Positions 12,797 through 53,206 of a stretch of DNA of 64,000 nucleotides are shown here, one piece after another (within the stretch, counting starts at the first letter, position 1; every line of letters starts with the position of its first letter). This DNA is from a plasmid. The notes below the pieces were generated by a model that saw only the letters and a list, made by a program, of their open reading frames with translations, did no database searches and was not told where the DNA came from. The DNA lies in the sequence record NZ_CP118109.1; one strand, 5' to 3'. The translations under genes and the position numbers were made by a program.

Positions 12797-12973
12797 TTAT
12801 TTTCCTTCGTTTTGCTCCGATTCAATAGCTTTCGATAATAATCGTCTGGCTTCTGTTGCCCAATCACCTGGCTTGATCTTATCGAAATGATCTTTAATAT
12901 CTGTATCGACATCACGAATGATGACTTGGACTTTCGGCACCTTCCGTGCTTTCGTCTCTCTTTCTTCAGCCAT
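12797..12973 (-). CDS. small basic DNA-binding adaptor (ParR-like), 58 aa, not in the ORF track
   Basis: ATG overlaps the actin-like gene stop (TAATG). Translation MAEERETKARKVPKVQVIIRDVDTDIKDHFDKIKPGDWATEARRLLSKAIESEQNEGK. Order matches ParM then ParR. Confidence 0.45.
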   Translation of the reverse strand: MAEERETKARKVPKVQVIIRDVDTDIKDHFDKIKPGDWATEARRLLSKAIESEQNEGK

Positions 12974-14166
12974 TACGCTGCCTCGCTTTCGAATATATCT
13001 TTGATGAATCTTTCATAAACCTGCTCAAAGTTCAGACTGCCATCTTCCTGTTCCTTGACTTGGTTCATTGCCGCACGAATATAGAATCCATATACGTTCG
13101 CCATTTGCGGGTCGTCCACTACGGAGAAGGCTTGTACCTTACGCTTCGCAAACTCTTCTTTCAAGAAGTCTTGGAAGATATGTGCGCCCCCGCCTGAAAG
13201 CAAGATGATCTTCACACGGTTCGCATGCTGACCCCAAGACGTAATAACCTCATTTGCGATGACTGCAGAGATCTCCTTCGCGGCTTCTTCTACAAGATGA
13301 TACAGATTATGAGAAGCGCCATTGAACTCGATTTCTTCTCCACGAACGACTGAATCTAGTTCGTCATCCGTTGGGCTGTAAGCAACCCCAAACTCGTTAT
13401 CAAAGTGAATAGCCATACTCACTTTGAGTCGCTTGTACAGCTCAGCAGTCGCAAGTGTCGATCCATAAGTTCCCTCTTCCTCTACATATACGCCTTCGGA
13501 GAATAATGCATAATCTGTAGTGAGGTGCCCGATATCAACGATAGCAGTCAAAGCTCTGTAGAGCGTAGTCGTCAAAAGACCTTCTTTTGTGAAAGCGAAT
13601 TGTGTAGATGTTACACTTCCCTCTGGCTGTCTCAAGATTTCATATCCAATAACATTAATTTTCTTAGTGATTGTTTTTCCATAACCAAGGTAGATCACAA
13701 TTTCAAAACTTTGGTTTATGTACTCTTCCAACCGTGTGCGAATACCTTTATCGAAATCCTCATTCGGCAGACCAGTTGTTAAGTAGACATTATATTCTCC
13801 ATCTTCATGAGGAACACATAGTGCAAGATTGGTTTCAAACATAACTCTGAATGATGGATCGGATGCACGGTCATGATTGGTTGTCCGACTTGTAACCAGA
13901 AGCTTATTACTCTTCATTGCCTGTTCGCCTACATGATAGAAACCGTCAGTAGTCTTCACCATCAAGCGAGATTCATCGACTTCTGTGTGCTTAAAGGAAT
14001 TAGCGAACTTTTCATTTGTAGGCATGACAGTACTCGGTATGACACCGAACATGCCTAAGCTCGACATGCGCTTGCTTCCATTAAAACCAATATCAATTGC
14101 TGCAAGCTCAAAATCAAATAAGTCTTCTAGCTTTAACTTCAAATCTTTCACTTTTTTCACCGCCAT
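12973..14166 (-). CDS. actin-like ATPase (ParM/Alp-type segregation protein)
   Basis: Actin-fold motifs: phosphate-1 AIDIGFNGSK, phosphate-2 IVDIGHLTTDYALF, adenosine motif ILLSGGGA. 397 aa. GGAGG RBS. Confidence 0.8.
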   Translation of the reverse strand: MAVKKVKDLKLKLEDLFDFELAAIDIGFNGSKRMSSLGMFGVIPSTVMPTNEKFANSFKHTEVDESRLMVKTTDGFYHVGEQAMKSNKLLVTSRTTNHDRASDPSFRVMFETNLALCVPHEDGEYNVYLTTGLPNEDFDKGIRTRLEEYINQSFEIVIYLGYGKTITKKINVIGYEILRQPEGSVTSTQFAFTKEGLLTTTLYRALTAIVDIGHLTTDYALFSEGVYVEEEGTYGSTLATAELYKRLKVSMAIHFDNEFGVAYSPTDDELDSVVRGEEIEFNGASHNLYHLVEEAAKEISAVIANEVITSWGQHANRVKIILLSGGGAHIFQDFLKEEFAKRKVQAFSVVDDPQMANVYGFYIRAAMNQVKEQEDGSLNFEQVYERFIKDIFESEAA

Positions 14167-14187
14167 GATTGTTTTCCTCCTAATTCG

Positions 14188-16777: not shown

Positions 16778-17122
16778 CTAGGCCCCCGCCTTCCTCTTAG
16801 CCTTCATCTTTTGTTTCAAGCGGCAGGAATCACATGCCCTCTTTGTGCTGTTGTTCTCTTTCCCGCATATTGTGCATAGTCCATTTGCTAAACGATATGA
16901 TCGCTTCGCTCTGGCATAGTGCACAACGCATAGTCCTTTTGAGATGGGCTTCTTATGGCACCCTTCTTCGATACACTCCGTATGCTCGTACATCGGTCTC
17001 CCTGTTCCTGCTAACACAATGGTGGGATCGTTATGCCGCTTAATTCTTCTGTAATGCTTCCAGCAGTGCCCTTTTGCGATAACTTCTTTTCCACAACGAG
17101 GAAATTCGCATATGGCTTTCAT
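16778..17122 (-). CDS. Cys-rich putative zinc-binding protein with repeated CxxGC...GLCxxHYxR modules
   Basis: CEFPRCGKEV..GHCWKHYRRIKRHNDPT, CIEEGCHKKPISKGLCVVHYARAKR, CTICGK...CDSC. Confidence 0.5.
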   Translation of the reverse strand: MKAICEFPRCGKEVIAKGHCWKHYRRIKRHNDPTIVLAGTGRPMYEHTECIEEGCHKKPISKGLCVVHYARAKRSYRLANGLCTICGKENNSTKRACDSCRLKQKMKAKRKAGA

Positions 17123-17322
17123 TTCATTACGTCTTCCTGCTGATAGACTATAGATTGTTGCGCTTCTCCCACCGTCTGCAAGCTATCTCCTTGAACATAG
17201 ACCGCATACGTATTTCGATCTATTGAATCCATCTCAATCCCAATGATTGAGATTCCCTCCTTAAGATGAAGCGCTTGCTCGAGCACTTCTTTCGTCACAA
17301 CAATCTTTCCTTGCTTTTTCAT
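17119..17322 (-). CDS. hypothetical protein, 67 aa
   Basis: Operon member with overlapping start/stop. Confidence 0.4.
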   Translation of the reverse strand: MKKQGKIVVTKEVLEQALHLKEGISIIGIEMDSIDRNTYAVYVQGDSLQTVGEAQQSIVYQQEDVMK

Positions 17323-17696
17323 TATTTGCTTGCCTCCAATTTATGTTCGTCTTCTTCTGCGCGCTTTTTAAGATAATGCCTCCTGCATAGCTTTCTTGCT
17401 AGAGCTGGTTTGCTGCACCCCTCTTCAATACATTCGCAATCGTTATTGGACTTGCCACCGATCATGTATTGATTACATCCCATTTCTTTTCTTCGATTCT
17501 TTGCATAGCAATTAGGGCAGAGGCCGAGCGCTTTCACTTTGTTAATACCACATGCTGAGCAAGACTTTGGTCTATCATAATCTTGCTTCTCGTATGTTGG
17601 GTCTCCGTATAGCCATTTCCTCCGATAGTGTTTTGCACAAAGCCCTGTTGATCTAACATGCTCGTTGCATCCTTCAATCGCGCATTCTTTTGACAT
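17322..17696 (-). CDS. Cys-rich putative zinc-binding protein, paralog of 16778..17122
   Basis: CAIEGCNEHVRSTGLCAKHYRRKWLYGDPT, CSACGINKVKALGLCPNCYAKNRR, CIEEGCSKPALARKLCRRHYLKKR. Confidence 0.5.
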   Translation of the reverse strand: MSKECAIEGCNEHVRSTGLCAKHYRRKWLYGDPTYEKQDYDRPKSCSACGINKVKALGLCPNCYAKNRRKEMGCNQYMIGGKSNNDCECIEEGCSKPALARKLCRRHYLKKRAEEDEHKLEASK

Positions 17697-18260: not shown

Positions 18261-18304
18261 GGATAATCATTCCTTTTTTATTTTTTTATTTTCTATACTC
18301 AAAT

Positions 18305-18318
18305 TGTAATGCGTTACA
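18305..18318. promoter_or_regulatory. palindrome TGTAATGCGTTACA (family copy 4) in the divergent control region
   Basis: 46 nt upstream of the minus-strand gene start at 18260, 185 nt upstream of plus-strand 18504. TTGACA at 18326. Confidence 0.5.
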
Positions 18319-18503
18319 TTTTATTTGACAACAATTAAATTTTCTATAGGGGGCAATTTTCTATAAAAAAATTTTTGCGTGGGGTACCTAGTTGTTTATT
18401 GTTGGCTGATGGTAGCGTTCGACGCCCCACCCCCTCAACAATAAGCAACCACATTAGGGTTGGCAGTGATCCCAATCAAACTGCACATCGAAAGGAGTCT
18501 ATC

Positions 18504-18992
18504 ATGACTAACACATTATCAGCTATTGCTAACACTATGGGAGAGGACGCTGTTCTTAAGACTGCATCAGCTTTAGGTATTGCATGGAGAGTAACAAAGA
18601 ATGTAGCAGGCTTCGTATATAAGAACCTTATACATAAGCCTATTGTTAAGGCAGCTAATGTAATACGTAAGCATAAGTGGGAAACAGCTGCTACAGCAGC
18701 CTCTGCTGTAGTAGGTGGTGTAGCCACTACTAGCGTATGTGGTGCAGGGTTGATGGCTGCTGCTGTAGCTATGGTTGCTGTACTCACTATCCATTTCCTT
18801 ATTGCTAAGCGTAAGAAGCAGGCTATGGACTGGCGTAGAGCTATCTTATCAGCCATGGTATGCGGTCTTATAGCAGGGTTCCTGCCTGTAATATCTGTAT
18901 ACCTAACGATGTGGGCATGCATTGGTCTTGACTATGCATGGCTTGCATCTGCATATACGTATCTCTACACTGCTGCTTTGTTCGTGATCTAA
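18504..18992 (+). CDS. membrane protein (3-4 predicted TM helices), 162 aa
   Basis: AAAGGAG RBS then ATG 18504. Hydrophobic stretches VVGGVATTSVCGAGLMAAAVAMVAVLTIHFLI and AMVCGLIAGFLPVISVYLTMWACIGL. Confidence 0.5.
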   Translation: MTNTLSAIANTMGEDAVLKTASALGIAWRVTKNVAGFVYKNLIHKPIVKAANVIRKHKWETAATAASAVVGGVATTSVCGAGLMAAAVAMVAVLTIHFLIAKRKKQAMDWRRAILSAMVCGLIAGFLPVISVYLTMWACIGLDYAWLASAYTYLYTAALFVI

Positions 18993-19359
18993 TAGGTCAT
19001 GGACATGGCATGGTATAGATGCATAGGGAGTACACGATAACGGTGGATGATCCCCTATGTAGGCTATACCCTCTACCCTACCTTATATGGTGGCATGGGT
19101 GGCAGTACTATGGTTAGCCATATTGTGCCTATGTATATGGGCATATGGGTGTGTAGGTGCACTCTATCATATACAGCCCCTGTGTAGTACGCATGGTCCG
19201 GGTCAGCCGCCCCCATGTGTAGTATGCAGGGGTCTTTTTATTTATTTACACATAGCTCCCTGTATAGGTGCCCTATATAGACCCCCCTCTATATGGACCC
19301 CCCTATATAGGGAGCTGTATGTAAGTACAGCACATTTAACCCCAAGGAGGAATCACTCT
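18993..19359. repeat. repeat-dense non-coding block: TGTGTAG-type iterons, tandem (A)CCCCCCTMTATAKG repeats, and AGCTCCC/GGGAGCT inverted repeat
   Basis: cccctgtgtagtacgcatgg (19177-19196) and ccccatgtgtagtatgcagggg (19211-19232). CCCTATATAG at 19271 and 19301, CCTCTATATGG at 19287. AGCTCCC at 19254 and GGGAGCT at 19310. Confidence 0.6.
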
Positions 19360-22300
19360 ATGTCAACTGATTCAAAGAAAGCTATGTCGTCCGTCCCTAT
19401 GTCCAACAAACAAACTAAAACAAACAAAAAGGAGCAATCTACAATGACTAACAACAAACAAGCACAAATCAACAAGCAACTGGCTGAGGTAAACCGTCTT
19501 TTCAACAAAGCTATCAAAGGTAACAAACTAGAGGCGCAAATGTCTGATTACAAGTCTACTTCTGTAGTATTGGATGCTATTGCTGAGTTCCCAGGATTGG
19601 GCGTTAAAACAAAGAATTATGAGGCTATCACAGCTGCTATCGCTAGTGGTAAGGATATCCGTACTGTTATGGAGAACCCGGAGCTTACTGGTGTTCCTAA
19701 GAATCAATATCGCTTCTTCCGTGCATTCATGGAAGAGAAAGGTGCAGAGATTCCTGCTATGGTGATTGCACCTACTCGTAAGCGTGTACGTACTGTATCT
19801 GTCGATCTATTGAAACATTCCCGCAACGAAGCTGGTGAAGTGGTGCTCAACGCGGAAGTCAGCTATCAATCTCAGTCTCAGCTTGCTGATGCATTCGGTA
19901 AATTGGTTCCAGCTACAGATAGCAATGATCTACACTTGGATGCGACTCACATTGTCTATATCGATTTGAATATCGCTGATCAAGAGAATCAAGAAATGAA
20001 AGACTTGCAAATCGAGATCGTCCGTAATGGATTCTATTACACAGTGGAAGGCGTTACACGCAAAGCTAACTTCTTTATTCAGACAGCAAATCAAACTCGT
20101 CAATTGCAAGGTATCTATATTGCAGAGGACTTCATGACGATTCCTCAAGCATTCCGCAAGCTTGGTCATAGCTTCCTGTCTTATTGCAAACTGGATAAGG
20201 CTACTGGTGTCTATACACTGGATATCACGAAGTATCTGAAACGTCCAGGTCTGTCTGGTACAAGCTCTGTGCCATCTAAGGTAGTAACCTTCCCTAATGC
20301 TCATATCGACAAGCTGCCTAACATGAGAACAGGAGAATACTTGGTTAACTCTGATCGTCACTCTATGGCAGTGATTGATGATCGCTTTGCTAAGATCAAG
20401 AATGGTAAGTTCAAAGCATTCTATAACAACCGTGTAGTCACTGTATCTGCGGTTGATGGTACATTCACAGCTACATGGAAAGAAGGACGCATGACTAAAG
20501 AAGAAGTCCTGCCTATGAACTATCTGAAGCTTGGCGTAGGCGATGGCTTGGTTCTAGCTTCCGAGTCGATCTACTGGGCATTGAAGGCTGAGTTTGGCAA
20601 TGATTCCGATGCATGGCAAGTACGTATCACCCCATTCGTTAAAGGCTTGATGGTATTCGTGCCAGGCTTGCGTCAATACTATGATGCAGATATCGTTGCA
20701 TTCAAGTCTGCTGTGAAAGGTGACTTCCGTTTGCTTGCTGATAGCGAAGGTAAGATTGACTTTGGTATTGAGCTGCGTATTGCACGCTTTGCTAAGCGTC
20801 CTGCTATGAAGTCTGAGTATGTAGAGCTTCCATATCAGTTTGCACATGTATCCAGCATTACAGCAGAGCAAATGATTGATGTTGCTCAACCACGCCTGGA
20901 TGAAGCTAAGAGTGTACTTACTAATCCTGCACTGATTCAAAAGTATGCAGGGGTTGCTCACTTGGAGAAGCTGAACAAGCTGACTCTTGCACAAGCTGAG
21001 TTTCTACGTGATCGCTCCCTTGTTTCTGTATTTGCTAACTTCATGCACTATGCTCCATTCACATTCCAAGATGCTTACATGCAAACAAGAGCACTGAGAC
21101 TGATGGGGCAGCAAGTAGACAAATGGGTTGCTGGTACGATTCCTGTAGAAGGCGAGTATCGCTTCATGGTTCAAGATCCATATGCATTGCTTCAAGCTGT
21201 GGAAGATGAGAATGGAGATATGATTGTCCCTGATCACGTTGGTCTTAAGCCACACCAAACATTCATGACAGCACGCGATAACCAACACTTTGTAGAGGGC
21301 CCTGTTGCATCCTTCCGTAACCCTGCTATTGCTAAAGGTGAAGGACGTATCTTGAATGGTGTAGCTCCACAAAACTATGTGACTGCTTCTGCTAAAGGCG
21401 CATTCAACTCTGTATGTGTAATGAGCTGCCATGACTTGGATACATTCGCTGAAGGCGGAGCTGATAACGATGGTGATGAAACATTCATTACACAAGTACG
21501 TGCTATCGTTAATGGCATCATGGGTAAAGATGGTCAATCTAAGTTCTTGGCTATGCTTGACCTGCATGTAGATAAAGATGGTGAGTGGTCTTCTGGATGC
21601 CCGTTCCCTATGGAATCTGATGAGAAGCTTGCATTTGATGCTCCTTGCGTATCACACGATGGACAATTCAAAGTGAAGTTCACTGCCGATCAATATAATG
21701 ATGCATTCATTCAAGCTGTACATGAGCTAAGCAAAGAGTATGTCATTCGTACACTGACTCCTAACAAGATCGGTCAACTGACTAACATTGCTACTCGTCT
21801 TGCTGATGCTGTACGTAAAGTAGGATATATGTATGCAGAGAATACCAATGAGTTTGGTCAAAAGACTGAACGTTCAGATGCTGAGAAACAAGAGCTGATT
21901 AGAGAGATCGCTCGTATGGAAGATATGATCGACTTGATTCGTCTGGCTCAAGGATGGGAGATTGACCGTGCTAAGCATGGTGGTGCATATGAGGAAGCAT
22001 TGGCTGCTGAATTGGAGTTCATCAACAATCCTCCAAGATATGCAGGATTCCAAGAGTCACCTAAATCCAAGCGTCAATGGATCAAGCAAGCATGGCTCGC
22101 ACATCACAAAGGTGCTGAGGGTGGAGTAGACACAGGTTCTGTAATGTCCCGTGTGCATAACCACATGAAAGCATTCGTACAAGAGAATGTAATCGACAAG
22201 TCCGAAGAGATCATGAACGATGTAGAGAACAACAACCTGATTCATATCCTGAGAGCTGAGTATGTTATTGATCCAGTTATCTATGACAGAATCGCTAACT

Positions 22301-22992
22301 CTATTCGTTCCATTCGCTCTATCTATACAAACGACATCAAGAACGCTCGTCAGAAGCATGAAGAGTTCATCAAGCTTGCTGAGCTGAAATATGGTGAGGC
22401 TGATCCTGCACTGGCGATGGCTAAAGAGAAGATCGAGCGTATCTATAGAGATGATTGCGATGCGATCACCTATAAGAGTCAAATGACACTTGGCGCTTTG
22501 GAGTTCTCTTTCTCTGCGACTGATATCGGCTATGTTGCATACATGGTGACATACACTGAGAGAGGTCAAGATAACAATCGTTCGATCAGCTTCCCTTGGG
22601 TCGTGGCTAAGAAGCAATTCTTGGAGCTGTGTGCTGCTATCTCTAATCGTGAGATTGTGAAGAACCCTTATGTTGTCCCTGCATCTGATATCAAGGCAAA
22701 CTTCCGTATTGGGGCTGATTCAACTGGTCGTGTGTTTGATGGAGAGAGAATGGCACCTGTCATTGCGAATGCAGGTATGGTAACAGTGGAGTATATGTAT
22801 AACGAAGTTACTGAAAGCTACATGTATGTTGTTTATGTTCCAGTAGGCAGCAGAAATGTATATGTAGGCGACTTCTACCAAGATCAAGTTGGATTCTTGA
22901 CTGGTGCAACACGTTTCAATCTTACAGTGTCCAATGCTGAAGCTAAAGGCAGAACTATGAGTCTGACGATCTCCAGCATCGAACGCATGTAA
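19360..22992 (+). CDS. giant protein (1210 aa); candidate single-chain two-barrel RNA polymerase (YonO/QDE-1-like)
   Basis: AAGGAGG RBS plus ATG 19360. Internal FRNPAIAKGEG ...(about 45 aa)... GADNDGDETF resembles the beta-prime NRxPxLH...NADFDGD double-psi-barrel signature. Candidate beta-like K-G segment PFVKGLMVF...KSAVKGDF. Confidence 0.4.
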   Translation: MSTDSKKAMSSVPMSNKQTKTNKKEQSTMTNNKQAQINKQLAEVNRLFNKAIKGNKLEAQMSDYKSTSVVLDAIAEFPGLGVKTKNYEAITAAIASGKDIRTVMENPELTGVPKNQYRFFRAFMEEKGAEIPAMVIAPTRKRVRTVSVDLLKHSRNEAGEVVLNAEVSYQSQSQLADAFGKLVPATDSNDLHLDATHIVYIDLNIADQENQEMKDLQIEIVRNGFYYTVEGVTRKANFFIQTANQTRQLQGIYIAEDFMTIPQAFRKLGHSFLSYCKLDKATGVYTLDITKYLKRPGLSGTSSVPSKVVTFPNAHIDKLPNMRTGEYLVNSDRHSMAVIDDRFAKIKNGKFKAFYNNRVVTVSAVDGTFTATWKEGRMTKEEVLPMNYLKLGVGDGLVLASESIYWALKAEFGNDSDAWQVRITPFVKGLMVFVPGLRQYYDADIVAFKSAVKGDFRLLADSEGKIDFGIELRIARFAKRPAMKSEYVELPYQFAHVSSITAEQMIDVAQPRLDEAKSVLTNPALIQKYAGVAHLEKLNKLTLAQAEFLRDRSLVSVFANFMHYAPFTFQDAYMQTRALRLMGQQVDKWVAGTIPVEGEYRFMVQDPYALLQAVEDENGDMIVPDHVGLKPHQTFMTARDNQHFVEGPVASFRNPAIAKGEGRILNGVAPQNYVTASAKGAFNSVCVMSCHDLDTFAEGGADNDGDETFITQVRAIVNGIMGKDGQSKFLAMLDLHVDKDGEWSSGCPFPMESDEKLAFDAPCVSHDGQFKVKFTADQYNDAFIQAVHELSKEYVIRTLTPNKIGQLTNIATRLADAVRKVGYMYAENTNEFGQKTERSDAEKQELIREIARMEDMIDLIRLAQGWEIDRAKHGGAYEEALAAELEFINNPPRYAGFQESPKSKRQWIKQAWLAHHKGAEGGVDTGSVMSRVHNHMKAFVQENVIDKSEEIMNDVENNNLIHILRAEYVIDPVIYDRIANSIRSIRSIYTNDIKNARQKHEEFIKLAELKYGEADPALAMAKEKIERIYRDDCDAITYKSQMTLGALEFSFSATDIGYVAYMVTYTERGQDNNRSISFPWVVAKKQFLELCAAISNREIVKNPYVVPASDIKANFRIGADSTGRVFDGERMAPVIANAGMVTVEYMYNEVTESYMYVVYVPVGSRNVYVGDFYQDQVGFLTGATRFNLTVSNAEAKGRTMSLTISSIERM

Positions 22993-23571
22993 TAGGCGAG
23001 CCACCTATATCTGTAGTCGGCATGTTCCTAGGCATGTCGGCTACTCCTTTATTATAGCACACCCTTCGGGTAGGTGCTAACGCCATCGACAGCTCCACGC
23101 TTCCACCCTAAGACGCCCTGCCCTTTGCAGATGACGAATCATACTACTTGTAGGATGCTTTCGTTAGACGCGAAGGCAGGATGCTTATATGGGACATGCA
23201 TGGACGGCAACTTACGGCAATACAGCTAGACAGCTGAATCATATGAATATAACGTCCGGTGGGGGAGGAAGCTGCTTCGCAACGTGGACGCTGATCTATA
23301 TGAGCAAGCTCTTTCCCTATGTTGTCGATGGCTGTTATCACCTATCCGAATCGTGTGTAATCTCAAGTGTGACGCTACTTTATGTACGATGACTTATATC
23401 ACAGAGAGCTACATCCTGCTGTATATCATACTTCGGATGCTATATTCCCTATTTCGTATATCATATGCTACTGAAAGTGGTGAACCCTCATCCGAAAATT
23501 TTCTTCATCCTGCGTATGATTATCTTATGTGCTCTATAGTGTATGACGATGTAATAGATAGTGCAGACGAT

Positions 23572-23601
23572 GGTCGCTAACGCTCCTGTGGCATTGTGAA
23601 T
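23572..23601 (+). repeat. conserved junction element A: GGTCGCTAACGCTCC-TGTGGCATTGTGAAT
   Basis: Shares CTAACG-N8-GGC-TT-T-GAA spacing with the copies at 36216 and 46715 and with the hairpin copies. Confidence 0.5.
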
Positions 23602-23629
23602 GTTTAACTTGAACGAGGAGGTTATCTAT

Positions 23630-26853: not shown

Positions 26854-26866
26854 CTTATCGCTCTCG

Positions 26867-26896
26867 GGAGCCTAACGGCTCCGGGGGCTTTTTGAA
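26867..26896 (+). terminator. TAAC-loop hairpin element T1: GGAGCC-TAAC-GGCTCC-GGGGGC-TTTTTGAA
   Basis: 6-bp stem and conserved downstream block. Also functions plausibly as a terminator. Confidence 0.5.
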
Positions 26897-26921
26897 TTTA
26901 TACATATGGAGGTTATTTATA

Positions 26922-27365
26922 ATGCGTATACATAACGAAAACTTTGAACATGTGATTTCTATGATGTTTTATGGCTACAAAGCATCTTCACACAATCCTG
27001 AGTGCTTCAGCTCTTCTGATCTTCGTATTGAGATGTGGGCAGAAGCATGCTGTAATGACATCATCAACAAGATGCGTGATCAAGGCTATGATCCTGCTCT
27101 TATCGTACCGGTTATCAGCAAGCCTGAAATTGATTTGAAATACTATCCAGATGCTAATCCTGCTTTAAAACAAGAGCTTGATGATGAGTTTGGCGGCTTT
27201 GTGGTTAATAACGATTTATACATGCTTGGTCTTCGCGCTTGGTATGCTGATGGTCATGAATATATCTCTCAGTTTGGCACACCATGCGATGATGAGAATG
27301 ACGGTCCATTTGGTGGCGCCTTTGCTTCTGAAGGCGATTACTACAACTATGTCGGTGCCTTGTAG
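26922..27365 (+). CDS. hypothetical protein, 147 aa
   Basis: GGAGG RBS plus ATG 26922. Confidence 0.5.
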   Translation: MRIHNENFEHVISMMFYGYKASSHNPECFSSSDLRIEMWAEACCNDIINKMRDQGYDPALIVPVISKPEIDLKYYPDANPALKQELDDEFGGFVVNNDLYMLGLRAWYADGHEYISQFGTPCDDENDGPFGGAFASEGDYYNYVGAL

Positions 27366-27394
27366 GAGCCTAACGGCTCCGAGGTCTTTATGAT
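27365..27394 (+). terminator. TAAC-loop hairpin element T2: GGAGCC-TAAC-GGCTCC-GAGGTC-TTTATGAT
   Basis: Same stem as T1. Downstream block degenerate. Confidence 0.45.
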
Positions 27395-27418
27395 ATTATT
27401 ATGTTATCCGATATATAA

Positions 27419-29891: not shown

Positions 29892-30125
29892 ATGCAACCA
29901 CCTATTCTACACCCAGTAAACAAAGTTCTCATGATTCCAGGACGACTATACAACATCAAGGACACCAAAGAAAGAAACATTCAGGCGTCTTTTTCTAAAC
30001 GAGAAGGTGAAAACTTTCACTTTGATTATGCTATCTCTTTCGATTTAGCTTCTGGGACTACTCTTCTCATTGATCTTCTTCTTCATGAGGATGAAATTAT
30101 CTCTTGTGAGCAATATCATTTCTAG
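29892..30125 (+). CDS. hypothetical protein, 77 aa
   Basis: AAAGGAG RBS plus ATG. Confidence 0.45.
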   Translation: MQPPILHPVNKVLMIPGRLYNIKDTKERNIQASFSKREGENFHFDYAISFDLASGTTLLIDLLLHEDEIISCEQYHF

Positions 30126-30155
30126 GCTATCTAACGATAGCAAGGGCTTTATGAG
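30126..30155 (+). terminator. TAAC-loop hairpin element T5: GCTATC-TAAC-GATAGC-AAGGGC-TTTATGAG, followed by a second plain terminator hairpin 30155..30181
   Basis: Perfect 6-bp stem, TAAC loop, GGGCTTTATGA block. Then GGACTG-tctatata-CAGTCC-TTTTT. Confidence 0.5.
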
Positions 30156-30211
30156 GACTGTCTATATAGCAGTCCTTTTTCTTATTCAATCATAAACTGG
30201 AGGTTTTACCT

Positions 30212-30543: not shown

Positions 30544-30762
30544 TTGGAGGTTATAATCATAGATATAAACCAGACGTATAATACAATTGCTGTTATCATA
30601 TTCGAGCTGTTTCTTTTCCTATGCTTTATCATCGCTATTCCCGCTCTCAGAAATCCTAAAATCCCGCTAAAGCGCAAGTTTGAGGTTATAGGAGCAATTA
30701 TACTTATGATGTTCTTTATTTATTCGGCTTATCTAATGGAGCTATCTGAATCCGCTCAATAG
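30544..30762 (+). CDS. small membrane protein (start uncertain)
   Basis: Two hydrophobic helices. Only a TTG start at 30544. Confidence 0.3.
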   Translation: MEVIIIDINQTYNTIAVIIFELFLFLCFIIAIPALRNPKIPLKRKFEVIGAIILMMFFIYSAYLMELSESAQ

Positions 30763-30870
30763 TATTTCATATGATTTATAAGATATTTCATATGATTTAA
30801 GTCTTATATCATATGCGATAACAGTTATATCGTATGATATATTATATAATTCCTATTTCATATGATATAT
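30760..30870. repeat. array of ATTTCATATGAT / TATCATATG direct repeats (5 or more copies)
   Basis: Copies at 30765, 30785, 30855. Variants at 30806 and 30826. Palindromic CATATG core. Confidence 0.5.
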
Positions 30871-31736: not shown

Positions 31737-31988
31737 ATGTTAACTGCTGTCGCACAAGAGAAAATGACCGATGATCAAGCCAAACAATACCTTGATAATA
31801 TGTCCGCTTATATCGAGAATGCTTCATTTGATATCGAAACTGAAAGTAATTTGCTTACTCATTGGGTGTCCGAACAGATCAAAGATATTCCTGAAAGCGC
31901 ACTCAAATTAATGCTCGTTGACTTATTTGTCAAAAATCAGCATCTCAAACAAGAATGCATCAGACAATCAGCATCCCTCTTTTTCTAA
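31737..31988 (+). CDS. hypothetical protein, 83 aa
   Basis: Adjacent ORF with 1-nt gap. Confidence 0.45.
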   Translation: MLTAVAQEKMTDDQAKQYLDNMSAYIENASFDIETESNLLTHWVSEQIKDIPESALKLMLVDLFVKNQHLKQECIRQSASLFF

Positions 31989-32084
31989 GTCGGCTTGGCG
32001 ACTATAAATAGGCTTTTGGCCAAGCGCGGGCTCCCAACTCGGGAGTATAGCAGTACCATACTATATTTAAAGGAGTGTCATATC

Positions 32085-33835: not shown

Positions 33836-34052
33836 GAATCTTTATCTTATTGATTCCCTGGCTTATCAAATTAACGGTAAGAGTGGATTGCTTCTTGGAC
33901 ATATGATGGCCACACATCAGCATATTGCAAGATCTGAAGCTGTTCATCAAGCGAATAAGAGGGAAGCCAAGGATCCCAAGCTTAACCGTGCCAACTATAG
34001 AAATGCCGTTCGTAATGTACTTGAGGATCGTCGCACTAGACGTTTCAAATAA
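33828..34052 (+). CDS. hypothetical protein, 74 aa
   Basis: Overlapping start. Confidence 0.45.
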   Translation: MDENLYLIDSLAYQINGKSGLLLGHMMATHQHIARSEAVHQANKREAKDPKLNRANYRNAVRNVLEDRRTRRFK

Positions 34053-34082
34053 GCAGTCTAACGACTGCGGGGGCTTTTTGAA
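34053..34082 (+). terminator. TAAC-loop hairpin element T3: GCAGTC-TAAC-GACTGC-GGGGGC-TTTTTGAAG
   Basis: Stop codon sits in the loop region. Covarying stem. Confidence 0.5.
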
Positions 34083-34118
34083 GTTAAATAATAAAACATA
34101 CTTTGGAGGAATTTAATC

Positions 34119-35782: not shown

Positions 35783-36213
35783 AATGTAACGAGACTGTAA
35801 CACTAGACTTTGGTGATGCAAACTATTCTCAAGCTTTAAAGATGGCAGAAAAGCTAGATAGGCGTGCTATGGAATGCCCTGGCTTTCATGTGGAAATCGG
35901 TGGCTGGAATAAATATTGGCAACTAAATCGCATTATTGAGGAAGCATATACTGAGGAAGAAAAGGATATATGTCGTGATATTGTAAGGCGTATCACAATT
36001 CAAATACTCGATGGCAAATATTTAGAGAAGGAACATGAGTTTGGAACTGAGAAAGAGACCGGATTATTCCTTCAAGGCCTTATAGATGGCGGACTAAAAG
36101 AAGATTCCCGCGTTCATGTAAGGCATTACAATTACTTTAAAGAAGAACTCGGAGATTATGAGGCTCCAGCGAAAACAGCACTCACTTATTTAAGCGGAAG
36201 CCATCTGTGTTGA
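35752..36213 (+). CDS. hypothetical protein with N-terminal CxxC, 153 aa
   Basis: GAGGAGGAAGAG RBS plus ATG. Overlaps the previous gene by about 30 nt. Confidence 0.45.
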   Translation: MGRQIKTTCLKCNETVTLDFGDANYSQALKMAEKLDRRAMECPGFHVEIGGWNKYWQLNRIIEEAYTEEEKDICRDIVRRITIQILDGKYLEKEHEFGTEKETGLFLQGLIDGGLKEDSRVHVRHYNYFKEELGDYEAPAKTALTYLSGSHLC

Positions 36214-36215
36214 TC

Positions 36216-36246
36216 GTCGCTAACGCTCCCATGGCCTTATAGAATT
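36216..36246 (+). repeat. conserved junction element B: GTCGCTAACGCTCC-CATGGCCTTATAGAAT
   Basis: Identical 14-mer to copies A and C. Confidence 0.5.
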
Positions 36247-36267
36247 AACATTACGGAGGGAATACTT

Positions 36268-46539: not shown

Positions 46540-46715
46540 GAAATGTGTTTGTTTTGCCAGACGGCACCGAACAGCACTTCATGTATCCTGTTGAACGAGA
46601 TATAGAAATTGGTGATCGCTTCGCTGCACATTTTAGCGATAATTCAGATCACATACTTACTTTAACTTCTATTGTTCATGAGGAAAAACGTATTCTCTAC
46701 AAGCTTTCGTATTAG
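46536..46715 (+). CDS. hypothetical protein, 59 aa (not in ORF track)
   Basis: ATGA overlap. Translation MRNVFVLPDGTEQHFMYPVERDIEIGDRFAAHFSDNSDHILTLTSIVHEEKRILYKLSY. Confidence 0.35.
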   Translation: MRNVFVLPDGTEQHFMYPVERDIEIGDRFAAHFSDNSDHILTLTSIVHEEKRILYKLSY

Positions 46716-46743
46716 GTCGCTAACGCTCCATAGGCTTTTTGAA
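46715..46743 (+). repeat. conserved junction element C: GGTCGCTAACGCTCC-ATAGGCTTTTTGAA
   Basis: Closest of the stem-less copies to the hairpin-type downstream block. Confidence 0.5.
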
Positions 46744-46779
46744 ATTATAAATTAAATTACTCTTGAGGAGGACTTTCAC

Positions 46780-52583: not shown

Positions 52584-53135
52584 ATGTCTGAATGTGAGCA
52601 CGCCTCTGAGTGTGAAAACGTGGACAAGTCCTGCCGCCGATGTTTCAACTACAACATGTTTCGTCCTAAGAAAGAAGTACGGCGGCTTGGGCAGCGCTCC
52701 GGTGCCAAAAAGAGCGATAAAGAAGGAATGGCATTTGAAGAGCGCGGTACGAAGAAATACAACCAGGCGATAAGACAAGCAAAAGACGTAGCGCGTCGTC
52801 AGTTCGCATCAGGCGCTCTGTATCACTCTCTAGGAGACATGATTACCGAAGAGGATCTTACAGCTGCTCTGGCCGAATTTAAAGAGCGTGGAACGCTAAG
52901 CAAGTCCGGAGAGAAGCAAATTACGATCAAGAAAGAGTGGCTTGATAAGCTGGAAGAAGAAGCGCGACTAATGAATCGTGACTTCTACTTCCTTCCGTTC
53001 ACATTCAAAGGTCAAAATACCGATTATGTCGTTATGACATATGATCGTATGCTTGCATATATTCAGACGATTCAAATACTGAATCAGAATTTGCGTCATC
53101 TTCAGGATCAACTTAATGCAGCGCAGGCCGACTAA
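52584..53135 (+). CDS. hypothetical protein with N-terminal C-x5-C-x6-C-x2-C zinc finger
   Basis: AAGGAGGAG RBS plus ATG 52584. MSECEHASECENVDKSCRRC. Confidence 0.5.
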   Translation: MSECEHASECENVDKSCRRCFNYNMFRPKKEVRRLGQRSGAKKSDKEGMAFEERGTKKYNQAIRQAKDVARRQFASGALYHSLGDMITEEDLTAALAEFKERGTLSKSGEKQITIKKEWLDKLEEEARLMNRDFYFLPFTFKGQNTDYVVMTYDRMLAYIQTIQILNQNLRHLQDQLNAAQAD

Positions 53136-53156
53136 CGCCGGCGGGGGCTTTTTGAT
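53127..53156 (+). terminator. TAAC-loop hairpin element T4: GCCGAC-TAAC-GCCGGC-GGGGGC-TTTTTGAT
   Basis: Stop codon TAA lies in the loop. One mismatch in the stem. Confidence 0.5.
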
Positions 53157-53206
53157 AGTCTTTTTTAATTACATCATAAAATCAAAACACAGGAAGGATG
53201 TTAATA

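What the first reader, a model, noticed from the sequence alone, without database searches (positions are those of the whole stretch)
19360..22992. 1210-aa protein with RNP...DNDGD signature: candidate single-chain two-barrel RNA polymerase
Residues about 650-720 read ASFRNPAIAKGEG ...(about 45 aa)... CHDLDTFAEGGADNDGDETFITQ. The invariant catalytic motif of beta-prime-type double-psi beta-barrels is (N)ADFDGD, with NR(A/Q)P(T/S)LH roughly 35-50 aa upstream. Cellular RdRPs and YonO-like phage RNAPs keep only DxDGD. This protein has DNDGD preceded by FRNPAI at the right distance. An upstream segment (ITPFVKGLMVFVPG...AFKSAVKGDF) could correspond to the beta-type barrel with its Lys-Gly elements. 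The gene is the first large gene of the plus-strand replicon half, preceded by a 370-bp repeat-dense control region and a membrane protein. The genome also carries two families of highly conserved intergenic motifs that could be its promoters. No other RNAP-like gene is in the window.
Basis: partly seen in the sequence, partly recalled or inferred. Interest (0 to 1): 0.78.

Follow-up and report, generated by a model that had tools for sequence, protein, structure and literature searches.

The report
Single-chain two-barrel phage RNA polymerase
The 1210-residue gene is a genuine but already-known kind of enzyme: a YonO/QDE-1-type RNA polymerase that carries both catalytic barrels in one chain, and it is the counterpart of gp99 of Bacillus phage 0305phi8-36.

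Summary

The eight residues universal to two-barrel polymerases are present: D395, R422, K428, R653, P655, D702, D704, D706. Seven are invariant across the superfamily alignment and R653 is at least 90% conserved.

The host element is a ~190-kb Bacillota phage of the 0305phi8-36/Moorella MTATph1 group. 0305phi8-36 gp99 (1218 aa, same genome position) has been annotated since 2007 as a putative RNA polymerase, and it is a clear homologue (hhalign 99%).

DNA-dependent transcription of phage genes is inferred from YonO, not shown. Two conserved intergenic motif families are real; neither can yet be tied to the enzyme.

The parts
19360..22992 (+). Gene for the 1210-aa single-chain two-barrel RNA polymerase (YonO/QDE-1/RdRP superfamily; counterpart of 0305phi8-36 gp99)
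20542..20724 (+). Catalytic part of the beta-like barrel (DPBB-B), residues 395-455: D395-G396, R422, K428-G429, K453-G454
   Evidence: These columns are invariant across 58 sequences. They align to RDR2 'SDGIG...QIRYGGYKG' and to YonO 'WCIRQNFIKG'. By motif order and spacing they correspond to QDE-1 D709/R738/K743 (PMC2919709). Model pLDDT is about 90 here.
21316..21477 (+). Catalytic part of the beta-prime-like barrel (DPBB-A), residues 653-706: R653-x-P655 and the Mg-binding triad D702-x-D704-x-D706
   Evidence: P655 and the three Asp are invariant and R653 is at least 90% conserved. They align to RDR2 'KNP...GGDLDGD', YonO 'RAP...SDFDYD' and gp99 'FRSP...GGADTDGD'. The triad lies in a loop between helix 693-699 and strand 707-711 of the model (model numbering +30).
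21955..21984 (+). Conserved post-barrel motif WEIDRAKHGG (residues 866-875; K872 invariant)
   Evidence: K872 is invariant and I868 and G874 are at least 90% conserved across 58 sequences. The motif aligns to RDR2 'AVDFAKTGA' and gp99 'WSIDFAKTG'. Its role is inferred only; it is possibly the bridge-helix/trigger-loop region that is conserved in all two-barrel RNAPs (PMC10770324).
18993..19359 (+). Non-coding, repeat-dense region upstream of the polymerase gene, a possible leader or control region
   Evidence: Six of eight CCCTRTRTAGG boxes in the window lie here. There is a 26-nt inverted repeat at 19243-19268/19302-19327. The RNA fold z-score is -4.85. A 370-480 bp non-coding gap is kept at this position in L003, L004 and L005. 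Function is unknown.
18505..18992 (+). Small hydrophobic (membrane-type) protein gene preceding the polymerase gene
   Evidence: Translation. It is called as a 162-aa gene on an independent contig. A 180-186-aa gene sits at the same place in L003, L004 and L005. No family hit.
18261..18374 (.). Divergent intergenic region between the two genome arms. It contains the palindrome TGTAATGCGTTACA (18305-18318), three ATTTTCTATA boxes and a sigma-70-like TTGTCA-17-TACAAT on the minus strand
   Evidence: The palindrome sits at the equivalent divergent region in L003 (8762) and L007 (8060).
23013..23044 (+). Terminator-like hairpin 21 nt after the polymerase stop codon: 14-bp stem, then TCCTTTATTA
   Evidence: It suggests that the polymerase gene ends a transcription unit (inference).
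23045..23572 (+). About 530 bp of non-coding, GC-richer, structure-prone DNA downstream of the polymerase gene
   Evidence: RNA fold z-score is -4.86. A gap is kept in L003, L004 and L007. Sequence is conserved only with L003. No Rfam family matches.
23570..23607 (+). First copy of motif 2 (GGTCGC-TAAC-GCTCC-TGT-GGCATTGTGAA), directly upstream of the first gene after the polymerase. It is a candidate phage promoter or RNA element
   Evidence: The same sequence sits at the equivalent position in L003 (14272-14309) and L004 (14232-14269).

Best explanation
The gene encodes a single-polypeptide two-barrel RNA polymerase. One chain carries a beta-like double-psi beta-barrel, which supplies D395, R422 and K428. 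About 230 residues later it carries a beta-prime-like barrel, which supplies R653-x-P655 and the Mg2+-binding triad D702/D704/D706. The two barrels face each other to form one active site, as in QDE-1, RDR2 and YonO. Up to here the claim rests on sequence and predicted structure. By analogy with YonO of SPbeta, the only characterised phage member, it most likely acts as the phage's own DNA-dependent transcriptase. It would be made after infection from its own transcription unit at the head of the plus-strand arm. It would then transcribe a class of phage genes from phage-specific signals, independently of host sigma factors. The best candidate signal is the strand-specific hairpin + GGCTTTTTGA motif that precedes genes on the plus arm. 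These last steps are inferred, not shown.
Against: The window protein on its own matches no Pfam, PHROG, NCBIfam or PDB sequence, so everything rests on family profiles and a predicted structure. No member of this ~1200-aa clade has been assayed. The nearest solved relatives, QDE-1 and RDR2, are RNA-dependent or ssDNA-dependent enzymes. Similarity to YonO is weak (86%). The YonO-type context is absent: no HU-like gene follows, and the late genes lie on the opposite strand. Only 64 kb of a ~190-kb genome was seen, so a second polymerase or a sigma factor may lie outside the window. I could not inspect model coordinates, so the facing geometry of the barrels is inferred from the global superposition scores. 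No promoter has been linked to the enzyme.
Confidence: 0.75

Rival explanations
1. It is a virion-packaged polymerase that is injected with the DNA to transcribe the earliest genes, like crAss-like phi14:2 gp66, P23-45 gp96 or N4 vRNAP, rather than an enzyme made after infection.
Against: It is a stand-alone 1210-aa protein. It is not fused to a tail or tape-measure protein and does not lie inside the structural module. The homologue gp99 is not flagged as a virion protein in a record that flags virion proteins found by mass spectrometry. Structural similarity is higher to the non-packaged QDE-1 and RDR2.
Confidence: 0.15
2. It works on RNA or single-stranded templates, as its Pfam name suggests. 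It would copy or extend phage or host RNAs (regulatory or antisense RNA, or the structured RNAs encoded next to it) or make primers, rather than transcribing double-stranded phage DNA.
For: The closest solved structures are RNA-dependent or ssDNA-dependent enzymes. Ruprich-Robert and Thuriaux noted that YonO-like proteins lack the funnel and switch-2 elements they linked to dsDNA transcription (PMC2919709). Both flanks of the gene are unusually structure-prone non-coding sequence, z about -4.9.
Against: YonO lacks the same elements yet is a processive DNA-dependent RNAP that transcribes a late operon in vivo (PMC5467207). The crAss and P23-45 single-chain enzymes are also DNA-dependent (PMC10770324). 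The enzyme is a conserved core gene of large dsDNA phages with no other RNAP detected nearby.
Confidence: 0.08
3. It is an inactivated or structural relic of a polymerase, or the motif match is fortuitous.
For: There is no direct family hit for the single sequence.
Against: All eight universal catalytic residues are kept across 58 sequences at 15-45% identity. There is a full-length fold match and conserved synteny.
Confidence: 0.02

Closest known systems
gp99 (ORF099, ABS83659.1) of Bacillus thuringiensis jumbo phage 0305phi8-36
   Same: Nearly the same length (1218 vs 1210 aa). Same genomic position: the first large gene of the small-gene/replication arm, next to the arm carrying terminase and virion genes. 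Same phage lineage (TerL 34% identical). Clear homology: hhalign 99.2%, E 3e-19; BLASTP E 5e-10. It is already annotated 'hypothetical DNA-directed RNA polymerase, similar to Pfam05183' and is listed as YonO-like in PMC2919709 and PMC7824862.
   Different: Only about 23% identity. gp99 passes the Pfam model and the window protein does not. The repeats upstream of the two genes differ: AGTATCGCACACGTTATG in 0305phi8-36 against CCCTRTRTAGG boxes here. gp99 has not been characterised biochemically.
YonO of Bacillus subtilis prophage SPbeta (orthologue in Spbetavirus BUCT082 used here)
   Same: A single chain carries both barrels in the order beta-like then beta-prime-like, with the same catalytic motifs (WxIR..F.KG; R-x-P; DxDxD). 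It is phage-encoded. It is the only characterised phage member: a DNA-dependent, processive enzyme that transcribes late genes (PMC5467207).
   Different: YonO is about 300 residues shorter (924 aa in BUCT082). Its triad reads DFDYD rather than DNDGD. Similarity is weak (86%, E 5e-6). The YonO context (yonO, HU-like yonN, ncRNA, late operon on the same strand) is not reproduced.
Eukaryotic cellular RdRPs: Neurospora QDE-1 (2J7N, 7Y7P) and plant RDR2 (7ROZ, 7W82)
   Different: 10-15% identity. They are eukaryotic silencing enzymes that act on RNA or ssDNA. The phage protein has its own N-terminal region (about 1-220) and a C-terminal beta-rich domain (about 1110-1210) outside the aligned core.
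Single-chain two-barrel RNAPs of other phages: crAss-like phi14:2 gp66 (6VR4), Thermus phage P23-45 gp96/gp64 and P74-26 gp62 (8H2M, 8F5M)
   Different: No sequence-level similarity was detected. gp66 and gp96 are domains of giant virion proteins, whereas this is a free-standing 1210-aa protein.

Membership tests
Two-barrel (double-psi beta-barrel) nucleotide polymerase superfamily | Eight universally invariant residues: Asp, Arg/Lys and Lys in the beta-like barrel; Arg-x-Pro and DxDxD in the beta-prime-like barrel (QDE-1 D709, R738, K743, R962, P964, D1007, D1009, D1011; PMC2919709) | tested here: met
   D395, R422, K428, R653, P655, D702, D704 and D706. Seven are invariant and R653 is at least 90% conserved in 58 sequences. 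They are in register with RDR2 motifs. Spacings are 27, 6 and 49 residues, against 29, 5 and 45 in QDE-1.
Two-barrel (double-psi beta-barrel) nucleotide polymerase superfamily | Two DPBB folds forming one active site | tested here: met
Two-barrel (double-psi beta-barrel) nucleotide polymerase superfamily | Templated, Mg2+-dependent NTP polymerisation | not testable with these tools
   Needs purified protein.
Single-chain RdRP/YonO-like branch (Pfam PF05183 and phage relatives) | Both barrels in one polypeptide, beta-like barrel first | tested here: met
   D395...K428 precede R653...D706 in one 1210-aa ORF.
Single-chain RdRP/YonO-like branch (Pfam PF05183 and phage relatives) | Statistically significant sequence homology to cellular RdRPs | tested here: met
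   The family profile hits RDR2 at E 1.2e-24 and QDE-1 at 3.8e-21. 262 superfamily representatives were found, of which sampled distant ones pass PF05183.
Single-chain RdRP/YonO-like branch (Pfam PF05183 and phage relatives) | The protein itself scores above the Pfam PF05183 gathering threshold | tested here: inconclusive
   The window protein has no hit at E up to 1. However, 8 of 13 family members, the 45%-identical P0016 and gp99 pass, and the founding phage member YonO also fails the model. The miss reflects model sensitivity, not exclusion.
YonO proper (SPbeta late-gene transcriptase) | Detectable homology to YonO across both barrels | tested here: met
   hhalign 85.9%, E 5.3e-6, 425 columns. 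Weak but in register.
YonO proper (SPbeta late-gene transcriptase) | YonO-type size and locus (about 840-925 aa; yonO, HU-like yonN, ncRNA, late operon on the same strand) | tested here: not met
   The protein is 1210 aa. No HU family appears among the window ORFs, and the late genes lie on the opposite strand. It is therefore not filed as a YonO orthologue, only as YonO-like.
YonO proper (SPbeta late-gene transcriptase) | DNA-dependent transcription of a defined phage gene class | not testable with these tools
   Needs RNA-seq or TSS mapping, with and without the gene, in an infectable host.
0305phi8-36 gp99-like polymerases of large Bacillota phages | Homology, length and syntenic position shared with gp99 | tested here: met
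   hhalign 99.2%, E 3.4e-19. 1210 vs 1218 aa. Same arm-head position. TerL places the phage in the same lineage.
Virion-packaged phage RNAPs (crAss gp66, P23-45 gp96, N4 vRNAP) | Polymerase is part of, or encoded among, virion or tail proteins and is present in particles | tested here: not met
   The gene-context part was tested and not met: it is a free-standing gene on the non-structural arm. Presence in particles is not testable here; the only hint is that gp99 lacks a virion mass-spectrometry note.

The most novel reading that the evidence does not exclude
The strand-specific motif 2 could be the promoter class read by this polymerase. It is a 5-6-bp covarying hairpin with a TNAY tetraloop, then 3 nt, then GGCTTTTTGA. 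It lies 25-60 nt upstream of plus-arm genes and is conserved in three phages. The enzyme would recognise an extruded DNA hairpin plus a short downstream box. That would be the first promoter logic defined for a YonO-like two-barrel RNAP, and it would converge on the hairpin promoters of the unrelated N4 virion RNAP.
Probability: 0.18. Interest if true: 0.6.

Novelty: new member of a known kind. Interest (0 to 1): 0.33.

Why it matters
YonO-like single-chain two-barrel RNAPs are thought to resemble the ancestor of all cellular RNA polymerases. Only YonO itself has been studied, and how such enzymes find promoters is unknown (PMC5467207). This locus adds a well-defined ~1200-aa clade of about 40 clusters at 50% identity. 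The clade is a syntenic core gene of 0305phi8-36-like large Bacillota phages. One copy sits in a cultured Virgibacillus salexigens genome, which offers an experimental handle. Two conserved motif families give concrete, testable promoter or operator candidates. It does not change what is known about the enzyme class.

Tried and rejected
- Direct searches with the single protein found nothing usable: Pfam, PHROGs, NCBIfam and PDB phmmer, and megablast against phages.
- tblastn against phages reached only Enterocloster phages at 21% identity. It did not reach SPbeta or 0305phi8-36. Those links needed profiles.
- Two deep-search submissions failed because the profile exceeded 1200 positions. A trimmed 7-sequence alignment solved this.
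- A tail, structural or other enzyme identity is rejected. No such family or fold appears above the polymerase hits.
- Orthology with YonO is rejected, although homology stands, because size and locus differ.
- I looked for an HU-like gene after the polymerase, as in SPbeta and PMBT24, and found none.
- I looked for a known RNA family in the flanking gaps and found none at Rfam gathering thresholds.
- Alignment of the downstream gap across relatives is informative only for the 80%-identical L003. Fold z-scores of the flanks in 11 loci are mixed. A conserved structured RNA is therefore not established.
- I tried reading the palindrome as a host-type -35/-10 promoter. Only the copy in the divergent region gives a good sigma-70-like match. 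A fixed -35 is absent at the other copies.
- The palindrome and the CGCTAACGCTCC core of motif 2 are absent from the fetched parts of 0305phi8-36, PMBT24 and the SPbeta-like phage. Neither is therefore a universal signal of YonO-like polymerases.
- The first local z-score script timed out.
Full report
OBSERVATION

The ORF runs 19087..22992 on the plus strand. ATG 19360 is preceded by AAGGAGG. From that start the product is 1210 aa, identical to a protein called independently on two metagenomic contigs, the longer of 190,219 bp. FRNPAI holds R653-N654-P655, and GGADNDGDE holds D702/D704/D706, 49 residues after R653. The upstream segment WQVRITPFVKG...AFKSAVKGDF spans residues 419-456.

The context description is also correct:
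- GC skew and gene orientation switch at about 18.3 kb.
- A small hydrophobic protein (18505-18992) and a 367-bp non-coding gap precede the gene.
- That gap holds 6 of the window's 8 CCCTRTRTAGG boxes and a 26-nt inverted repeat.

WHAT THE ELEMENT IS

The window is part of a large tailed phage. The minus arm encodes major capsid protein, a protease-like protein, portal, large terminase and an actin-like Alp7A/ParM segregation protein. The plus arm encodes many small genes, then helicases, a UvsX/RecA-like recombinase, an NrdG-like radical-SAM activase, an AAA ATPase and ThyX.

The terminase is closest to Moorella phage MTATph1 (44%), Bacillus phages Edson and WH1 (about 39%), KLEB27-3 (36%) and 0305phi8-36 (34%). 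That makes it a member of the group of large Bacillota phages typified by 0305phi8-36. A relative lies on a 198-kb contig of a cultured Virgibacillus salexigens genome.

WHAT THE PROTEIN IS: SEQUENCE

On its own the protein matches nothing in Pfam, PHROGs, NCBIfam or PDB sequences. Its homologues decide the matter.
- Fifteen relatives were found. Most lie on 190-213-kb contigs, and six carry precomputed PF05183 (RdRP) hits.
- Scanned individually, 8 of 13 family members match PF05183, best E 2e-17.
- The 45%-identical P0016 scores 56 bits against a cut-off of 23.8.
- An exhaustive profile search of 1.84 billion representatives found 262 proteins at E up to 1e-3 and 42 at E up to 1e-30.
- An alignment of 58 of these, at 15-45% identity to the query, has only eleven invariant columns: D395, G396, R422, K428, K453, P655, D702, D704, D706, G805 and K872. 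R653 is at least 90% conserved.

Ruprich-Robert and Thuriaux (PMC2919709) define the two-barrel polymerase superfamily by eight invariant residues. In QDE-1 these are D709, R738 and K743 in one barrel, and R962, P964, D1007, D1009 and D1011 in the other. The window protein has exactly this set with similar spacing: D395, R422, K428; R653, P655; D702, D704, D706.

The 58-sequence profile hits maize RDR2 (E 1.2e-24), Arabidopsis RDR2 (3e-23) and QDE-1 (3.8e-21). The printed alignments place DG395, Q-x-R422 and K428-G on RDR2 'SDGIG...QIRYGGYKG'. They place R-x-P/GAD-x-DGD on 'KNP...GGDLDGD'.

WHAT THE PROTEIN IS: STRUCTURE

An AlphaFold2 model of residues 31-1210 is confident: pLDDT 83.4 and pTM 0.73, with about 90 in both barrel regions.
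- Foldseek against the PDB returns only QDE-1 and RDR2 in the top 21 hits (E 3.5e-21 to 4e-13). Alignments span about 1100 columns, with TM up to 0.56 on the target. After that come non-significant hits to the largest subunits of multisubunit RNAPs.
- The viral structure library gives phage proteins named 'RNA dependent RNA polymerase' (E 3e-22, 1e-15) and a crAss protein.

No structural, tail or other enzyme fold competes. I could not inspect coordinates. The statement that the two barrels face each other therefore rests on the global superpositions.

RELATION TO KNOWN PHAGE ENZYMES

The YonO orthologue of a Spbetavirus (L001 3005-5779, followed by HU-like yonN and by yonK) aligns to the family profile over 425 columns that cover both barrels. 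The hhalign probability is 86% and E 5e-6. WCIRQNFIKG, RAP and DFDYD are in register. The Enterocloster phage PMBT24 'RNA-dependent RNA polymerase' aligns at 96%.

The most telling comparison is with 0305phi8-36. Its ORF099/gp99 (ABS83659.1) is 1218 aa and is annotated 'hypothetical DNA-directed RNA polymerase; similar to Pfam05183'. It sits at the head of the small-gene/replication arm, just as here. It aligns at 99.2%, E 3.4e-19, over 680 columns, with pairwise BLASTP E 5e-10. That ORF was already cited as YonO-like in 2010 (PMC2919709) and in 2021 (PMC7824862).

The window gene is therefore the counterpart of a described, though uncharacterised, polymerase. It is not an orthologue of YonO proper. 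It is about 300 residues longer, no HU-like gene follows it, and the late genes are on the other strand.

HOW IT MOST LIKELY WORKS

Shown here by sequence and predicted structure: one chain carries a beta-like and a beta-prime-like DPBB with a complete catalytic constellation. Three Asp residues (D702, D704, D706) plus D395 bind the two Mg2+ ions. R422, K428 and R653 contact the NTP and the RNA 3' end.

Inferred from established work: YonO is a processive DNA-dependent RNAP that transcribes the SPbeta late operon (PMC5467207). The crAss and P23-45 single-chain enzymes are DNA-dependent transcriptases with their own promoter motifs (PMC10770324). The enzyme here is therefore most probably the phage's own transcriptase.

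Inferred from the locus:
- The gene appears to form its own unit. It has a structured 367-bp leader upstream and a 14-bp-stem terminator-like hairpin 21 nt after the stop.
- It is free-standing on the non-structural arm.
- gp99 lacks the virion mass-spectrometry note that neighbouring 0305phi8-36 proteins carry.

I therefore favour an enzyme made after infection over an injected one. No other RNAP or sigma factor was detected among the 95 other ORFs. However, one Pfam list was truncated, and about 126 kb of the genome lies outside the window.

THE TWO MOTIF FAMILIES

Both are real.

(1) TGTAAYGCRTTACA is a perfect 14-bp palindrome.
- It has 11 sites with at most one mismatch, against 0.02 expected.
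- Nine of the 11 lie in intergenic positions on both arms. These include the divergent region and the regions upstream of the portal and Alp7A genes.
- It is conserved in all close relatives, down to polymerases only 32% identical.
- It is absent from the fetched parts of 0305phi8-36, PMBT24 and the SPbeta-like phage.

Its dyad symmetry and the MerR-family regulator encoded in the window and in relatives make an operator for a dimeric regulator the more economical reading.

(2) Motif 2 is a strand-specific element: a 5-6-bp stem, a TNAY tetraloop, the second stem arm, 3 nt, then GGCTTTTTGA.
- There are 8 copies in the window (23.5-53 kb), all on the plus strand.
- Each starts within 0-13 nt of the upstream stop codon, or overlaps it, and lies 25-60 nt before the next start codon.
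- Stems covary: GGAGCC/GGCTCC, GCTATC/GATAGC, GCAGTC/GACTGC, and GGCGC/GCGCC in L004.
- An imperfect version, GGTCGC-TAAC-GCTCC, is conserved to the letter in three phages. In each of them one copy lies just upstream of the first gene after the polymerase.

This is the better promoter candidate for the phage enzyme. An RNA-level role (processing site or atypical terminator) fits its position equally well. Nothing here links either motif to the polymerase.

NOVELTY AND VERDICT

However, the enzyme belongs to a known kind that is already annotated in the type phage of this lineage.

What is new is modest:
- a well-populated ~1200-aa clade that escapes Pfam for some members;
- conserved synteny;
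- a homologue in a cultured Virgibacillus salexigens genome;
- concrete motif candidates for the unsolved question of how YonO-like polymerases find promoters.

Interest 0.33.

Noticed in passing
window 31988-32052 (+); also L003 23573-23640 (+): A Pistol self-cleaving ribozyme (Rfam RF02679) scores 47.3 bits against a gathering score of 34.5. It lies between small plus-arm genes. A second copy scores 49.1 bits in the 80%-related phage.
   Followed up: no
window 6384, 14743, 18305, 27419, 33320, 36117, 45094, 45129, 50652, 54091, 60860 (14 bp each): The 14-bp palindrome TGTAAYGCRTTACA has 11 sites against 0.02 expected, and 9 of the 11 are intergenic on both arms. In several copies a TATAGAAT/TATATAAT-like box follows 6-7 nt downstream. 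It is conserved in all close relatives (L003-L007) but not in the fetched parts of 0305phi8-36, PMBT24 or the SPbeta-like phage. A MerR-family regulator gene is present in the window and in relatives and could be its binder.
   Followed up: partly
window 23570-23607, 26865-26902, 27363-27400, 30124-30161, 34051-34088, 36213-36250, 46713-46750, 53125-53162 (+): A strand-specific motif: a covarying 5-6-bp hairpin with a TNAY loop, followed by GGCTTTTTGA. Each copy sits immediately after a stop codon and 25-60 nt before the next gene. The variant GGTCGCTAACGCTCC is conserved to the letter in L003 and L004. It could be a promoter, a processing site or an atypical terminator.
   Followed up: partly
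window 18993-19359 and 23045-23572: Both non-coding flanks of the polymerase gene fold far better than shuffles as RNA (z -4.85 and -4.86). Gaps are retained at both positions in relatives, but the sequence aligns only with the 80%-related phage, and z-scores in 11 loci are mixed. SPbeta also has an unannotated ncRNA between yonO/yonN and the late operon.
   Followed up: partly
window 12973-14166 (-); L007 (Virgibacillus salexigens contig BNER01000008.1, 198 kb): An actin-like Alp7A/ParM segregation protein is conserved on the minus arm of all relatives. One relative is a 198-kb contig in a cultured bacterial genome. Together these suggest a plasmid-like resident state (phage-plasmid) or actin-driven DNA positioning.
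   Followed up: no
window 30759-30869: Four or five tandem copies, with a period of about 21 bp, of ATTTCATATGAT-type repeats lie in an intergenic gap. Similar TATTTCATA repeats occur in L003 at 14111-14172 and 21649-21734. They look like iterons and may mark an origin.
   Followed up: no
window 16778-17122 (-) and 17322-17696 (-): Two small Cys-rich proteins carry a repeated C-x2-4-C...G-x-C-x-K-H-Y-R-R motif and look like zinc-binding DNA-binding proteins. A Zf_WRKY19 Pfam hit (E 2e-5) among the scanned ORFs may belong to one of them. They are encoded just upstream of the divergent region.
   Followed up: no
one ORF of set A7 (window ORFs between 287 and 30759; the ORF was not identified); L005 5526-5945 (-): A Tad2-like (Thoeris anti-defence) domain hit at E 6e-4 appears among the window's ORFs. 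A clear Tad2-like gene sits at the equivalent minus-arm position in a relative.
   Followed up: no
L009 23813-24244 (0305phi8-36, upstream of gp99): Five copies of AGTATCGCACACGTTATG-like repeats lie upstream of the homologous polymerase gene gp99. Repeat-dense upstream regions thus seem to be a shared trait although the repeat sequences differ.
   Followed up: no
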